NCBI RefSeq assembly: GCF_006345805.1
Contig: NW_021826859.1
Location: forward strand, 1-11,817
Direction of reading: 5' to 3'
Length of the DNA: 11,817 nucleotides
Source: Octopus sinensis
Lineage: Eukaryota
Below are positions 1-11,817 of the stretch, in pieces. Below the pieces are notes generated by a model. It saw only the letters and a program-made list of their open reading frames with translations. It ran no database searches and was not told the origin of the DNA. How positions within the stretch are numbered: position 1 is the stretch's first letter; the number at the start of each line of letters is the position of its first letter. The translations under genes and the position numbers were made by a program.

Positions 1-66
1 ATAAATATATGCATATATACATACATATTTTACATACCTACATATATATGTATATATACATGCATA

Positions 67-255
67 TATTGGTACAGGACATAAAGAAACGTGGAACAGT
101 TAGAAACGAAAACATAAAACAAAACCATAGGAACGAACTTTTTTCCGAACAACGAAAAAACGGAGAAACGAGACATACAACATAAAGAATATTCCCCTTC
201 TTTAGTTGTCCCCGTTTGAAACTACTCCACGGTTCGAAGGCAATGGAAAGACGCC
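67..255 (-). mobile_element. Short terminal (pLTR-like) fragment of a probable Penelope-like element, embedded in TA-rich microsatellite
   Basis: Minus strand reads ...ccttCGAACcgtggagtagtttcaaacggggacaaCTAAAGAagggg..., then a ~125-nt T-rich tail ending acgtttctttatgtcctgta. This is the same architecture as 2369-2527, which lies downstream of a GIY-YIG remnant. TA-type repeats flank both sides. Confidence 0.5.
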
Positions 256-279
256 TATATATATATATTTATATATATA

Positions 280-1225: not shown

Positions 1226-1616
1226 ACACATATATATAAATCAGTTAAGAAAAAGAAAGATTTTGTTTTGAGGCAATATCATAAAATAATAGCTTCGTAA
1301 ATAATTTATATCTCAGATGGTATTTTAAAGCAATGTTCTTGAAAAGTTCTTTTAACGCTTTTGAGGTGTTTTTCGTCAATCGTCTCTTTCGATAAGGAAT
1401 CGCAGACATACGTTTGTAGTTTTATCACAGTGAAATCTTTTTGTCTGCTACACTTTGGTGGTCAGCTAGATATTGGCATTTCAAGGGTAAGATGTCATTT
1501 GCTACAGAATTCAGTGATCACGCGCACACATATGCTTACACATACAGACACAAACAGACAAAGAAGATAAAAATACTATTAATGTCTTGCTAAAAACGAA
1601 AAAAGGTTAATTTACT

Positions 1617-1992: not shown

Positions 1993-2523
1993 AAAAAAAT
2001 ACCTATTAGAGAATTGCTAATTATTCTGGTCACAACCCGAACCCGTTTTAGGTAGGAAGATTTCTAAATGGACCTGTGTACACCAGTATATCAGGAATAC
2101 ATATATCATGTGGTAAAAGGAATTTCTTGAAATAATACGAAAATTTTGGTATCTTTATGAAAGTATCCCCAGGGTACCAGTATATCTGCATTTAGTATTT
2201 TTTTTATAACAGAATATTCTATGTTGGAAAATTACCTGAGTCAATGAGAATGAATGTAAGAAGAGATATATAAGTACACATTCGCTAACTTTCTTACAAA
2301 GGGGTCTAATGCGCTTAACTTAGACTTTTTGGGGGCTCAACCAGATCGAACCATCTAAAGCGTAACTGCCCGAAATGGTCGTGAGTTCTGGGACTTGACT
2401 GATGAAAGAAAGCCAAGAAAGACCCGTGTTTTTTTGCCGGTCCTACTAATTGTTTCTCTTGTCCGCCTTTGTATCGTCTATCTGACCGAACGTTTTAATG
2501 ACCTCTATTACGTTTTTGTTCAT

Positions 2524-2527
<4 letters not shown>
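1617..2527 (+). mobile_element. 5'-truncated Penelope-like element: EN remnant + 3' non-coding terminal region ending in (TA)n
   Basis: GIY-YIG remnant followed by ~530 bp non-coding sequence containing CGAAATggtc (2371-2380) and CTGATGA (2399-2405), a T-rich tail, and an abrupt end at the TA tract. The 5' boundary is uncertain. Confidence 0.65.

Positions 2528-2560
<33 letters not shown>
2527..2560. repeat. (TA)n microsatellite
   Basis: Directly visible. Confidence 0.97.
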
Positions 2561-2656: not shown

Positions 2657-3072
2657 TCAAAACACATCATTTTAAAAAAGAATTCAGTTACATATCACAT
2701 GTGATTTCGCATTTAATGCAGAATATGCATTTCATGTTCATCAGTGCAACAAACTCAAGAAATATAAGAAAAAACATAACATTACAAGCTCGATAGCAAA
2801 CCGTAGAATTCGTCGTAGCATGTACGAATGTTTATCCTTACATATCTATGAAAATGGCGGGCTTATTCGCAATGCATTTGGGTACCAAATTGTCTAGTCG
2901 GAATAAAAATTCAGTATTGAACTATTCCGGTGAAAAATATAAATTAATGTTATGTTTTCTTTTATATTTCTTGAGTTTGTTGCACTGATGAACATGAAAT
3001 GCATATTCTGCATTAAATGCGAAATCACATGTGATATGTAACTGAATTCTTTTTTAAAATGATGTGTTTTGA
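2657..3072. repeat. Long inverted repeat: arms 2657-2784 and 2945-3072 (128 bp, 126/128 identical), 160-bp spacer
   Basis: Manual reverse-complement alignment; the only differences are tataagaaaaaac vs tataaaagaaaac near the inner ends. Confidence 0.97.
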
Positions 3073-3865: not shown

Positions 3866-4445
3866 GGCGGCGAGCTGGCAGAAACGTTAGCACGCCGGGT
3901 GAAATAGCGGTATTTCGTCTGTCTTTACGTTCTGAGCTCAAATTCCGCCGACGTCGATTTTGCCTTTCATCCTTTCGGGGTCGATTAAATAAGTACCTGT
4001 TACACACTGGGGCCGATATAATCGACTTAATCCGTTTGTCTGTCCTTGTTTGTTCCCTCTGTGTTTAGTCCCTGTGGGTAGTAAAGAAATAGGTATTTCG
4101 TCTGTCTTTACGTTCTGAGTTCAAATTCCGCCGACGTCGAACTTGCCTTTCATCCTTTCGGGGTCGATTAAATAAGTACCTGTTACGCACTGGGGTCGAT
4201 ATAACCGACTTAATCCGTTTGTCTGTCCTTGTTTGTTCCCTCTGTGTTTAGTCCCTTGTGGGTAGTAAAGAAATAGGTATTTCGTCTGTCTTTACGTTCT
4301 GAGTTCAAATTCCGCCGACGTCGAACTTGCCTTTTATCCTTTCGGGGTTGATAAATTAAGTACCAGTTGCGTACTGGGGTCGATGTAATCGACTGCCCCC
4401 CTTCCCCCCCAATTTTCAGACCTTGTGCCTAGAGTAGAAACGAAT
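3866..4445 (+). mobile_element. tRNA-derived SINE family A, trimeric form (head + three ~184-bp units + 3' tail)
   Basis: Head ggcggcgagctggcagaaacgttagc (A-box-like at 3876). Units start ggtatttcg at 3909, 4092 and 4276 (periods 183, 184). Each unit has a B-box-like gagttcaaattc (e.g. 4117-4128) and core gcctttcatcctttcggggtcgat...aagtacc. Tail cttgtgcctagagtagaaa is shared with the other copies. Confidence 0.92.
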
Positions 4446-6710: not shown

Positions 6711-6747
6711 TTATTGTTGTTGTTGTTGTTGTTATTATTATTATAAA

Positions 6748-6940
6748 GGCAACGAGCTGGCAGAACCGTTAGTACACTGGGCGAAACGCTTAGCATTATT
6801 TCGCCAGTCGCTATGTTCTGAGTTCAAATTCCGCAGAGGTCGACTTTACCATTCATCCTTTCGGGGTCGATAAATTAAGTACCAGTCAAGTGCTGGGGTC
6901 AATGTAATCAATTCCATGTCTTGTGCCTATAATAGAAATT
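6748..6940 (+). mobile_element. SINE family A, monomeric and more diverged copy
   Basis: Same head, B box, core and cttgtgcctataatagaaa tail as 3866-4445, but a single unit and no inter-unit spacer; runs into (ATT)n. Confidence 0.9.
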
Positions 6941-7011: not shown

Positions 7012-7705
7012 GACGTCGCACAGTGTACAATATTGTGAGGTTGTCGATTGAGGATATTGTGTCTACCGAGGGTTTGTACTGTTTGTCAAGTCACAACAAG
7101 GACCTCAGACAGTCAATATGCGTGCAGTTCCAAGTAATGCTGACTTTTGCAATACATCTAGATTGTAGGGTATCTCTAAGGTTTTCAGGTGTTTTTTCAG
7201 ATTGGGTGGTATTGAACCCAATGCTCTGATGACAATAGAGATAGCCTTTATCCTCGGTTCTCGTAGCTGCCACATCTTAGCGATCTCAATTCTCAGGTCT
7301 CCATATCTACCAACTTTTTCTCTTTCTTTCATGATATGTTGATCTGGCATTGCTACGTCGATTATTAGGCACACTTGTTTGTCCTTCCTAAAGGTTACTA
7401 TATCCGGCCTTCGATGCTCTAACACTTTGTCTGTCTGGAAATCAAAGTCCCAGAGGATTTCTGCCTTCCCCTTTTCGTCCATTACTACTACCAGTGTATG
7501 TTGGTACTAAACACCCATAACCTCCTATCCATACTGATGGCATAGTAGCCAGTGGAGAGTTTTGGGCTACTTTGTCGTGTCTACGCTTGTGCTCTTTCTG
7601 TGCAAGACTTTCACAAGCACTAACAATGTGAGTCACATTTTCGACCCTCTTGCCACACATTCTGCAGAAGTCCAATGCACTTGTCTGGTATATATTCTTT
7701 TTCAC
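7011..7705 (-). mobile_element. 5'-truncated R4/Dong-clade non-LTR retrotransposon (CCHC zinc knuckle + restriction-like endonuclease + 3' UTR), pseudogenised
   Basis: CRMC...ENVTHIVSAC...KRRHDKVA (ORF 7442..7741), frameshift near 7560, then LHWLLCHQYG*...*YQH in frame with ILWDF..QTD...HRRPDI...IIDVA.P...EK..RY.DL..EI..MW...ALGSIP...LQKSALLGTARIL (ORF 7105..7482). About 95 bp of 3' UTR follows, then (TAA)n, the known Dong tail/target. Confidence 0.93.
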
Positions 7706-7765
7706 TATCATGATCATCATAACCAGCATCATCATCATCATTACTGTTATTGTTAATATTATTAG

Positions 7766-7826
7766 ACATTCTCAGTTCAAATTCTGCCGAGCTTGACTTT
7801 GCTTTTCGTCCTCTCGGAGGTCGATG
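7766..7826 (+). mobile_element. Diverged internal fragment of SINE family A
   Basis: acattctcagttcaaattctgccgagcttgactttgcttttcgtcctctcggaggtcgat aligns to the unit core. Confidence 0.8.
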
Positions 7827-8293: not shown

Positions 8294-8336
8294 TTTAGAT
8301 ATATTATTATTGTTGTCACGTTATCATTCCTTTAAA

Positions 8337-8922
8337 GGCGGCGAGCTGGCAGAAACGTTAGCACACCGGGTGAAATGCTTAGCGGTATTTCGTCTGCCGT
8401 TACATTCTGAGTTCAAATTCCGCCGAGGTCGACTTTGCCTTTCATCCTTTCGTGGTCGATAAATTAAGTGCCAGTTACGCACTGTGGTCGATGTAATCGA
8501 TTTAATCCGTTCGTCTGACCTTGTTTGTCCATTCTGTGTTTAGCCCCTTGTGGGCAGTAAAGAAAGAGGTATTTCGTTTGCCGTTACATTCTGAGTTCAA
8601 ATTCCGCCGAGGTCGACTTTGCCTTTCATCCTTTTCCTTTCGATCGATAATTTAAATAAGTGCCAGTTACGCACTGGGGTCGATGTAATCGACTTAATAA
8701 TCCGTTTGTCTGTCCTTGTTTGTCCCCTCTGTATGTAGCCCCTTGTGGGCAGTAAAGAAAAAGGTATTTCGACTGCCGTTACATTCTGAGTTCAAATTCC
8801 GCCGAGGTCGACTTTGCCTTTCATCCTTTCGTGGTCGATAAATTAAGTGCCAGTTACGCACTGGGGTCGATGTAATCGATTTAATCCGTTTGTCTGTCTT
8901 TGTTTGTCCTCTCTGTGTTTAG
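8337..8922 (+). mobile_element. SINE family A, trimeric form, 3' end lost by fusion to a family B head
   Basis: Head at 8337; units start at 8384, 8568 and 8763 (periods 184, 195). The third spacer breaks off at ctctgtgtttag. Confidence 0.92.
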
Positions 8923-10560: not shown

Positions 10561-10602
10561 TGTTTGTCCTCTCTGTGTTTAGGTGTTTTCGCTCAATAAA
10601 CA
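10561..10602 (+). repeat. Exact 42-bp copy of 8901-8942 (family A/family B junction)
   Basis: tgtttgtcctctctgtgtttaggtgttttcgctcaataaaca is identical at both positions; the flanking bases differ. Confidence 0.97.
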
Positions 10603-10629
10603 TTGGTAGCATATATATATATATATGTA

Positions 10630-10830
10630 TAGATAATGTGTCAATAACCAGTTAGAGGAGAAGCCGTGTTGGGAATCAGAGATAGAGGCTGTGTTTTGGA
10701 GGTGGAGCATCATACTTTTCTTAAGGATGGTTTCGAACATCTTGCTGATTATTGATGTAAGGGAAACCGGTCGGTAGTTAAGCGGGTCTTCGCGGCTCCC
10801 TTTCTTGAAAATTGGGCAGATTATCGCTGT
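10630..10830 (-). pseudogene. Fragment of LINE reverse transcriptase N-terminal region (CR1/L2/Jockey-type)
   Basis: TAIICPIFKKGSREDPLNYRPVSLTSIISKMFETIL...ISDSQHGF contains the PIFKKG, NYRPISLTS and QHGF motifs of APE-type LINE RTs; bounded by TA-type microsatellite on both sides. Confidence 0.92.
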
Positions 10831-11154
10831 TATATGTATGTATATATGTACGTGTGTGTGTATATGTTTGTGTGTCTGTGTTTGTCCCACCAACATCGCT
10901 TGACAACCGATGCTGGTGTGTTTACGTTCCCATAACTAAGCGGTTCGGCAAAAGAGACCGATAGAATAAGTACTAGGCTTACAAAGAATAAGTCCTGGGG
11001 TCGATTTGCTCGACCAACAGCGGTGCTCCAGCATGGCCACAGTCAAATGACTGAAACAATTAAAATTGTAAATGTAACTAAGATTTTAGAACATCTACAT
11101 TGCTTGAAATAAGAGCTAAAAAGCTCCAGTGTTGTAGTTAAAGCACATAACTGT

Positions 11155-11488: not shown

Positions 11489-11817
11489 CTTCTCTATTCT
11501 AGGTACAAGGCCCGAATTTTTTGGTACTTAATTTATCGACCCCGAAAGGATAAAAAGCAAAGTCGACCTCGGCGGAATTTTAACTCAGAATGTAAAGAGA
11601 CGAAATACCTATTTCTTTACTACCCACAAGGGGATAAACTCAGAGAGGACAAACAAGTACAGACAAACGGATTAAACGATTACATCGACCCCAGTGCGTA
11701 ACTGGTACTTATTTAATCGACCCCGAAAGGATGAAAGGCAAAGTCGATCTCGGCGGAATTTGAACTCAGAACGTAACGGCTTACGAAATACGGCTACGCA
11801 TTTCGCCCGGCGTACTA
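11489..11817 (-). mobile_element. SINE family A, dimeric form, head cut by the window edge
   Basis: Reverse complement of the unit; cgaaatac at 11601 and 11784 (period 183); tail complement tctattctaggtacaagg at ~11493-11510. Confidence 0.92.

What the first reader, a model, noticed from the sequence alone, without database searches (positions are those of the whole stretch)
2365..2415. Permuted (type II-order) hammerhead-like motif in the 3' terminal region of a Penelope-like element
Seen: C-GAAA-T-g-GTC (2371-2380), an 18-nt segment able to form a hairpin (tgagtt/gacttg, three G-U pairs), then CTGATGA-A (2399-2406), ~380 bp downstream of a GIY-YIG remnant. Established: PLE terminal repeats commonly carry minimal type I hammerheads (CUGANGA first, then GAAAC-palindrome-GUC) that can cleave as dimers. 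Inference: here the two core halves are in the opposite order with helix I closed by a loop. That is type II topology, known mainly from prokaryotes, so it could be an undescribed ribozyme variant of a PLE lineage. Weakness: helix II (ctgccc vs agaaag) does not pair in this decayed copy.
Basis: partly seen in the sequence, partly recalled or inferred. Interest (0 to 1): 0.72.

Follow-up and report, generated by a model that had tools for sequence, protein, structure and literature searches.

The report
Split-core permuted hammerhead in retrotransposon tails
This is a decayed copy of a repeated jumping-gene sequence that holds all core letters of a hammerhead ribozyme in a scrambled, knotted strand order with the core likely split and held together by two extra helices; it is predicted to cut itself, untested, and the same fold appears to sit in the tails of Naiad jumping genes that were reported to lack the usual hammerhead.

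Summary
The letters are real, but the type II reading fails: in 57 other copies its helix II pairs in 28-34% of cells, and its hairpin needs a base private to this copy. Window 2274-2521 is a 5'-truncated copy of a ~750-bp (TA)n-flanked repeat, a separate element from the endonuclease remnant upstream. The core boxes fit another wiring: strand order S-G-C, predicted cut after C2355 (AUC), not 2380. Stems I and III pair and covary across seven repeat families of this genome and one metagenome contig. The stem II partner lies upstream, so the core is opened between A9 and G10.1 and splinted by two extra helices; 6 of 8 sets pass a joint test, 2 fail. The fold follows the ORF of R2-group retrotransposons and, read by eye, ends 7 published Naiads; 6 others show type CSG. 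SGC and CSG hammerheads are known only outside genomes of known organisms (PMC10085705); I found no split form in print. Cleavage is untested; this copy is probably impaired.

The parts
2274..2521 (+). 5'-truncated 3' third of a ~750-bp non-coding, (TA)n-flanked repeat (family A)
   Evidence: (1986 candidates, 40 scored, other copies 86-90% identical)
2288..2295 (+). P4 5' strand; pairs with 2406-2413 and closes the opened core
   Evidence: 94% of cells paired in 57 copies; window 7 of 8 pairs
2297..2331 (+). P5 hairpin between P4 and stem II
   Evidence: 90% of cells; window 12 of 12 pairs tested
2333..2337 (+). stem II strand 10.1-10.5, upstream of the cut block; pairs with 2367-2371 (4 pairs in this copy)
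   Evidence: G-C versus A-U covariation; 200 of 220 cells in 44 of 57 copies that could be parsed
2341..2345 (+). 5' strand of the helix linking stems I and II (matches the 'I' helix of type SGC; inferred); pairs with 2387-2391
   Evidence: 93%; window 5 of 5
2350..2354 (+). stem III strand 16.5-16.1 (U16.1 = 2354)
   Evidence: 94%
2355..2355 (+). C17; predicted cut between 2355 and 2356 (AUC triplet)
   Evidence: analogy to the hammerhead core; NUH in 8 of 8 sets (required by the search); not tested
2356..2361 (+). stem I strand 1.1-1.6; two private substitutions (2357, 2361) leave 4 of 6 pairs in this copy
   Evidence: 92% in other copies
2367..2371 (+). stem II strand 11.5-11.1
2372..2375 (+). 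G12-A13-A14-A15.1 core box
   Evidence: sequence; CGAAA in 8 of 8 sets
2375..2379 (+). stem III strand 15.1-15.5
2387..2391 (+). 3' strand of the stem I-II linking helix
2393..2398 (+). stem I strand 2.6-2.1
2399..2405 (+). C3-A9 core box CUGAUGA
   Evidence: sequence; CUGANGA in 8 of 8 sets
2406..2413 (+). P4 3' strand, directly after A9
2527..2560 (+). (TA)n tract at the fixed 3' end of the repeat
62..256 (-). second, more decayed copy of the same fold in a different repeat family (C); core box at 199-205 and G box at 232-235 both mutated, upstream strands missing

Best explanation
Window 2288-2413 is a decayed copy of a conserved RNA fold in a ~750-bp non-coding repeat: it holds every hammerhead core letter in S-G-C order, likely has its core opened between A9 and G10.1 and splinted by two extra helices, and is predicted to cut itself after C2355. 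Shown: core letters, strand order, stems I and III and their covariation across families; place in the 3' tail of non-coding repeats and of R2-group ORF elements. Strongly indicated: stem II forms with an upstream strand; P4 and a P5 hairpin sit flush between A9 and G10.1. The fold is then a circular permutation of the SGC/CSG scaffold whose opening lies inside block C. Inferred: intact copies cleave as monomers (stem III is 5-6 pairs, no palindrome needed); cleavage in two tandem units releases a unit-length RNA that can be ligated to a circle, on which a reverse transcriptase supplied in trans starts at the internal (TA)n spacer, giving the fixed 3' end, variable 5' ends and partial tandems. 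This copy, with 4 of 6 stem I pairs and no upstream two thirds, is probably impaired. The autonomous partner of family A was not identified.
For: (8 sets: families A-G and contig L281): stem I positions 1-5 paired in 40 of 40 cells with 3-4 pair types per position, against a cross-family mean of 2.2 of 5 (6 of 56 chimeras reach 5); stem III positions 2-4 paired in 24 of 24 cells with 2-4 types. Sets are 39-66% identical pairwise while CUGANGA and CGAAA hold in 8 of 8; flush P4|P5|stem II junction found in 6 of 8 sets (scores 42-53), 0 of 60 upstream shuffles reach each; gaps are 0/0/0 in C, D, E and L281; inside family A, stem II position 3 is G-C in 19 and A-U in 10 of 36 informative copies (57 examined, 19 unparsed, 2 other; Fisher p 2.7e-4); core columns 0.965 against 0.919 elsewhere (p 0.006); new helices 90-94% of cells, type II helix II 28-34%; 73 descriptor hits in 433 kb of loci (chosen for these families) against 0, 0, 0 in three shuffles; the descriptor led to D and E as unsought neighbours, later F and G. 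L281, with a protein 38% identical to family E's, has the same fold after its stop and the start of a next ORF behind it. A pattern from the published octopus Naiad tail matches this genome 180 times, control 0, with stems I, II, III of 6, 6, 5 pairs. By eye in PMC8557442 File S5: 7 Naiads with the split form and 6 with type CSG. Type SGC and CSG RNAs cleave in vitro (PMC10085705). 13 of 39 family B alignments follow a previous unit across an identical 8-nt TA spacer.
Against: No cleavage or raw-read evidence. F and G fail the automated junction test (score 0): F fits only if two CpG-decayed columns are read back, and G pairs 5 of 5 with the strand right after A9, i.e. could be an unsplit SGC. 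Searched one at a time, upstream stem II (5.1 versus 4.5) and P4 (6.9 versus 6.3) barely beat cross-family chimeras; G10.1 was forced by my search. Top chimeras equal or beat cognate scores (B/A 49.5, D/C 47, C/D 42; related families). In the genome's Naiad, P4 has only 3-4 contiguous pairs. Core columns are not better conserved than flanks within C, D and G (p 0.5, 0.21, 0.3). The stem II covariation in A may be one inherited event. 21 of 31 A alignments and the 20 Naiad copies shown run across the predicted cut, and none of the 31 starts within 4 nt after it, so templates are uncut or re-ligated. A Penelope hammerhead was not needed for insertion in vitro and needed protein to cleave (PMC11167929 passages). 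Four distant R2-group loci (26-31% identity; at least two end close to the stop) show no motif; Naiad_Omin shows none. Naiad readings are by eye on part of 54 consensi.
Confidence: 0.78

Rival explanations
1. The fold is conserved but works mainly as a structural handle (a binding or initiation signal for the reverse transcriptase) and cleaves little or only with protein.
For: Most copies span the predicted cut; the Anolis Penelope hammerhead needed protein and was dispensable in vitro (PMC11167929 passages); an opening at A9/G10.1 might weaken the A9-G12 pair (inference).
Against: All catalytic letters including G5, G8, G12 and NUH are kept across sets 39-66% identical, which a mere handle would not need; related SGC and CSG RNAs cleave.
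Confidence: 0.12
2. It is an ordinary unsplit type-SGC hammerhead: stem II forms with the strand after A9 and the upstream helices are an alternative or inhibitory fold.
For: Contiguous stem II scores 4-5 of 5 in C, D, E, F, G, 5 of 5 in G.
Against: Only 2 of 5 in A and B and 3 of 5 in L281; only 2 Watson-Crick pairs in C, D, E against 5 upstream; within A and G the 11.x variants track the upstream strand.
Confidence: 0.07
3. It is a type II hammerhead cutting after C2380.
For: G box precedes C box, and GUC follows GAAAU.
Against: Helix II 28-34% of cells, hairpin depends on a private base, first helix I pair is G.A, helix III would close a 1-nt loop; the GUC after the G box is not kept in B, C, D, E, F, G or L281.
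Confidence: 0.01
4. The boxes are chance matches in a decayed repeat.
For: CTGANGA occurs 8 times in the window and short GAAA..GTH words are common; in 180 kb of random genome the relaxed descriptor gave 1 hit against 1-3 in shuffles.
Against: Covarying stems across eight sets and an independent contig.
Confidence: 0.02

Closest known systems
Type-SGC hammerhead (HRIMA-1 and variants; Eckert et al. 2023, PMC10085705; read parts 1-6 of 8 of the text; figures and supplements not seen)
   Same: Block order S-G-C, pseudoknotted stems I-III, short linker from stem I to stem II, an extra helix joining the far ends of stems I and II, full core consensus.
   Different: There block C is assumed never to be interrupted by more than 1-2 nt; here the 10.x strand lies upstream of block S and P4 plus P5 are inserted at A9/G10.1. 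Those RNAs were not found in genomes of known organisms; these are high-copy repeats of an animal genome. Those were shown to cleave; these are untested.
Type-CSG hammerhead (same paper; two metagenomic sequences)
   Same: Same cyclic order C-S-G; the split form is its circular permutation opened inside block C. Six published Naiad tails read as CSG by eye.
   Different: Block C intact, no P4/P5.
Minimal type I hammerheads of Penelope-like elements (Cervera and De la Pena 2014, PMC4209133; read parts 1-2 of 4) and non-LTR retrozymes (bioRxiv 10.64898/2026.07.22.740005; part 1 of 5 and passages)
   Same: Place near the 3' end of a tandem-forming, microsatellite-inserted retroelement; proposed release and circularisation of unit RNA.
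   Different: Type I order C-G-S, 1-2 pair palindromic stem III, dimer cleavage; here stem III has 5-6 pairs and the order is S-G-C.
Naiad Penelope-like elements (Craig et al. 2021, PMC8557442; passages, supplement parts 1 and 24 of 59 and search excerpts; one supplementary figure page held no text)
   Same: (TA)n targets, partial tandems; reported to lack canonical hammerheads, with 'HHR_core' (10 mentions) and 'HHR_half_core' (8) notes; the octopus Naiad tail carries this fold.
   Different: Family A has no ORF and no sequence link to a Naiad was tested; the same fold also follows R2-group ORFs.
R2-group (restriction-like endonuclease) non-LTR retrotransposons, probably the HERO clade (label recalled; clade described in passages of PMC4640811)
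   Same: Families E and F and L281 carry the fold just after the stop of such an ORF (RVT_1 E 1.8e-22; best solved structure R2).
   Different: No hammerhead reported for HERO in my search (0 papers); family A itself shows no ORF.
Type II hammerhead (Perreault et al. 2011, PMC3088659; passages)
   Same: G box precedes C box.
   Different: Type II has the cut block between G and C and stem II open at the ends; here the cut block precedes G.

Membership tests
Type II hammerhead | Stem II formed by the strand before GAAA and the strand after CUGANGA | tested here: not met
   28-34% of cells in 57 copies; 2 of 5 in consensus
Type II hammerhead | Stem I hairpin flush between the cut site after the G box and C3 | tested here: not met
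   first pair G.A (2 of 56 paired), fifth pair 1 of 56
Hammerhead ribozyme (class) | Core C3UGANGA9, G12AAA, U16.1-A15.1, H17 | tested here: met
   window; 8 of 8 sets (the anchors were required by the search); 37 of 57 A copies keep all 11 core letters
Hammerhead ribozyme (class) | Stems I and III flank the core with covariation | tested here: met
   window stem I only 4 of 6
Hammerhead ribozyme (class) | Stem II with G10.1-C11.1 | tested here: met
   C11.1 in 8 of 8; 5-6 pairs with an upstream strand in 6 of 8 sets; F and G ambiguous
Hammerhead ribozyme (class) | Site-specific self-cleavage | not testable with these tools
   needs a bench assay
Type-SGC hammerhead | Block order S-G-C | tested here: met
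Type-SGC hammerhead | Helix joining the distal sides of stems I and II | tested here: met
   93% of cells in A; 5-11 pairs in 7 of 8 sets, 3 in G by the contiguous count
Type-SGC hammerhead | Block C uninterrupted (10.x strand within 2 nt of A9) | tested here: not met
   family A 2 of 5; upstream strand with P4/P5 instead
Minimal type I hammerhead of Penelope-like elements | Order C-G-S with palindromic minimal stem III | tested here: not met
   no GAAA box after CUGAUGA in the family consensus
Penelope-like element (family A as a derivative) | Partial-tandem insertions, fixed 3' end, microsatellite target | tested here: met
Penelope-like element (family A as a derivative) | Homology to the terminal repeat of an ORF-bearing element | tested here: inconclusive
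   no ORF in the unit; adjacent endonuclease remnant is another family; no parent found
HERO clade (families E, F, L281) | Reverse transcriptase plus C-terminal zinc knuckle and restriction-like endonuclease | tested here: met
   for E; endonuclease motifs read by eye; F seen only as the last ~25 codons
HERO clade (families E, F, L281) | Placement in the HERO clade by reverse transcriptase phylogeny | not tested
   no named HERO reference in hand; label recalled

The most novel reading that the evidence does not exclude
A self-cleaving hammerhead of an undescribed topology (S-G-C order, core opened at A9/G10.1 by two helices) is shared by Naiad Penelope-like elements, HERO-type R2-group retrotransposons and their non-coding derivatives across animals; with type CSG in nematode Naiads it supplies the ribozyme Naiads were thought to lack and points to a circular-RNA copying route common to two unrelated retrotransposon groups.
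Probability: 0.6. Interest if true: 0.92.

Novelty: new variant of a known kind. Interest (0 to 1): 0.8.

Why it matters
It would add a hammerhead topology outside the six permutations thought possible, move non-circular permutations from anonymous environmental sequence into animal genomes at thousands of candidate copies, and answer why the most abundant Penelope-like clade seemed to lack a hammerhead. The same fold behind R2-group ORFs makes a circular-template model for both groups directly testable, and a near-identical young family (B, 99-100%) is a ready substrate. A junction at A9/G10.1 that tolerates two helices would also be a new insertion point for ribozyme switches.

Tried and rejected
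Type II fold and cut at 2380: rejected. Type I readings with the upstream CTCAAG-like word or the downstream GAAT..GTC: no stems. Link to the GIY-YIG remnant: rejected; Pfam gave no GIY-YIG hit. Rfam: no hammerhead hit. Random 180 kb of the genome: 1 relaxed hit without stem II, like shuffles, so no density estimate. Sequencing runs: no RNA holder listed; 18 runs, contigs only. Laying 8 of them on family B: summed contig depth rises across the predicted cut (about 6-, 13- and 50-fold in three RNA-like runs against 2-fold in a DNA-like run), but the rise starts about 25 nt before the site, that stretch is shared with related families, contigs cannot show ends and no pile-up was listed; not counted as evidence. 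5' ends of A copies found with a 3'-only query: 10 of 31 at +5 to +47, 2 in the 43 nt before, 0 at the site (hand binomial 10 versus 2, p about 0.02 one-sided); short copies and a stable fold explain this as well; weak hint only. The same test for B returned no match. Viral contigs: 0 loci for the protein alignment; 0 of 76 pattern matches fit the descriptor. Prokaryote collection: 4 distant loci, 0 with the motif. Metagenome scan gave only 1 locus. A Pfam accession for a Penelope domain was not in the library. Literature: searches found no split-core hammerhead and no non-circular hammerhead in retrotransposons; PMC3088659 passages list only 1-2 nt core insertions; PMC3334697 was not held; subscription papers, Repbase Reports, the figures and supplements of PMC10085705 and bioRxiv supplements were not seen and could hold a precedent.

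Full report
Observation. The window has CGAAATGGTC at 2371-2380, 18 nt, then CTGATGA at 2399-2405. Rfam reports no hammerhead in the window at E up to 10. A search of the own genome with 2240-2525 gave 1986 candidates; of 40 scored, the 39 other copies are 86-90% identical over window 2274-2521. Extending them shows a ~750-bp unit without ORF between (TA)n tracts, with a fixed 3' end, variable 5' ends and frequent partial tandems (family A). The stretch 1700-2266 is a different, older repeat (24 candidates); 0 of 19 relatives fetched match 2274-2521. Its consensus resembles the C-terminal part of a Penelope GIY-YIG domain (resemblance recalled; no Pfam hit). The motif and the remnant are neighbours, not one element.

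Type II fails.

What the boxes belong to. A neighbouring repeat in locus L010 (family B, 99-100% identical copies, 785-bp tandem unit) and the repeat at window 62-256 on the minus strand (family C) keep the same boxes. Comparing A, B and C gave another wiring: the U-H site lies before the G box. In window terms: stem III 2350-2354 with 2375-2379, C17 = 2355, stem I 2356-2361 with 2393-2398. This is the S-G-C order of Eckert et al. 2023 (PMC10085705, text parts 1-6 of 8). A descriptor for it gave 73 hits in 433 kb of loci selected for these families, against 0 in each of three shuffles, and exposed families D and E as neighbours (one of the 73 looks like chance; the window's own copy is missed because its stem I has decayed); F and G turned up the same way.

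Covariation. Eight sets (A-G and the metagenome contig L281) are 39-66% identical pairwise and keep CUGANGA and CGAAA in 8 of 8. Stem I positions 1-5 pair in 40 of 40 cells with 3-4 pair types each; strands swapped between families give 2.2 of 5 on average. Stem III positions 2-4 pair in 24 of 24 cells. In A copies the new helices pair in 90-94% of cells.

The split core. The strand before GAAA pairs poorly with the strand after A9 (A 2, B 2, L281 3 of 5; C, D, E 4 of 5 with only 2 Watson-Crick pairs) but fully with a strand upstream of the cut block. The strand after A9 pairs further upstream (P4), and a hairpin (P5) fills the gap. A joint search found this junction in A, B, C, D, E and L281, with no unpaired base in the last four; 0 of 60 shuffles reached each score, 1 of 60 for the window's copy. 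F and G failed: F fits if two CpG-decayed columns are read back; G could be unsplit. Taken singly, the searches for upstream stem II and P4 barely beat chimeras, and chimeras of related families score as high as the true sets. Within A, stem II position 3 is G-C in 19 and A-U in 10 of 36 informative copies out of 57 (p 2.7e-4; possibly one inherited change). Eckert et al. assumed block C is never interrupted by more than 1-2 nt; this fold is a circular permutation of their SGC/CSG scaffold opened at that point (inference). The helix 2341-2345/2387-2391 joins the far ends of stems I and II as their 'I' helix does (inference from the text; figure not seen).

Host elements. Family E lies behind an ORF with reverse transcriptase (RVT_1, E 1.8e-22; best solved match R2), zinc knuckle and restriction-like endonuclease motifs; F follows a similar ORF end; HERO is a recalled label. 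18 of 30 loci found by the E protein gave a descriptor hit, one of them family F. L281, 38% identical in protein, has the fold after its stop and the start of another ORF behind it. Craig et al. 2021 (PMC8557442; passages) report that Naiads lack canonical hammerheads but note cores and half cores. Read by eye in their File S5, the tails of Naiad_Obim, Naiad_Ovul, three Acropora Naiads and two unnamed excerpts (parts 9 and 12) show the split form; Naiad-1, -2, -3_Nbra and three unnamed excerpts (parts 13, 15, 16) show type CSG; Naiad_Omin shows none and one excerpt (part 17) has unclear stem II (names by header order; only part of 54 consensi seen). A pattern from the octopus Naiad tail matches this genome 180 times, control 0, which also suggests an octopus-like genome; stems I, II, III have 6, 6, 5 pairs, P4 only 3-4. 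Family A was not linked to any ORF.

Mechanism. Shown: letters, order, stems, position. Inferred: monomer cleavage after N17, since SGC and CSG RNAs cleave and stem III is stable; release of unit RNA from tandems, ligation, and internal priming at the (TA)n spacer, following the model in PMC4209133 and the internal initiation in PMC11167929 (passages). In line with this, 13 of 39 B alignments follow a previous unit across an identical 8-nt spacer, and 21 of 31 A alignments span the cut; uncut tandem transcripts explain both equally well. The window's copy has private changes at 2357, 2361 and 2288 and is probably impaired.

Novelty. Paper searches found no split-core hammerhead and no non-circular hammerhead in a retrotransposon; closed papers and unseen supplements may. 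Other agents of this scan reached the same reading on other windows; I found these notes after my own analysis and do not count them as evidence. Verdict: new variant of a known kind; interest 0.8.

Noticed in passing
window 2979-3042 (+), with an inverted copy inside 2657-2784 (-): A type I hammerhead-like motif: 6-pair stem I, CUGAUGA at 2985, GAAA at 3021, a 12-nt palindrome as stem III, H17 = A3036; first stem II pair is A.C. It sits in a 128-nt inverted repeat.
   Followed up: partly
window 1240-1585 and 1700-2266: Old low-copy repeat with a Penelope-like endonuclease end; in several relatives the 1240-1585 piece lies inverted behind the 1700-2266 piece. No hammerhead seen in its consensus.
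   Followed up: partly
PMC8557442 File S5, nematode Naiad tails: Six excerpts read by eye as intact type-CSG hammerheads with 5-12 pair stems and a flanking helix; CSG was reported from two metagenomic sequences only.
   Followed up: partly
L281:492-1100: Stop of a reverse transcriptase ORF, the ribozyme fold, then the zinc-finger start of the same kind of ORF: a tail-to-head joint, tandem or circular. Many homologous proteins lie on 3-4.5 kb contigs.
   Followed up: partly
L086:1774-1790 and other family B loci: Very young family with tandem units joined by an identical 8-nt TA spacer.
   Followed up: partly
L056, L060, L026, L068 flanks: Canonical and core-variant minimal type I hammerheads in other TA-flanked repeats (seen by eye).
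   Followed up: no
window 3866-4420, 6747-6910, 8336-8900, 11510-11817: SINE-like repeat with an internal ~183-nt tandem unit, several copies on both strands.
   Followed up: no
window 7105-7771 (-) and 10579-10935 (-): Fragments of non-LTR retrotransposon ORFs: a zinc knuckle plus restriction-like endonuclease end, and a reverse transcriptase start (identities recalled).
   Followed up: no
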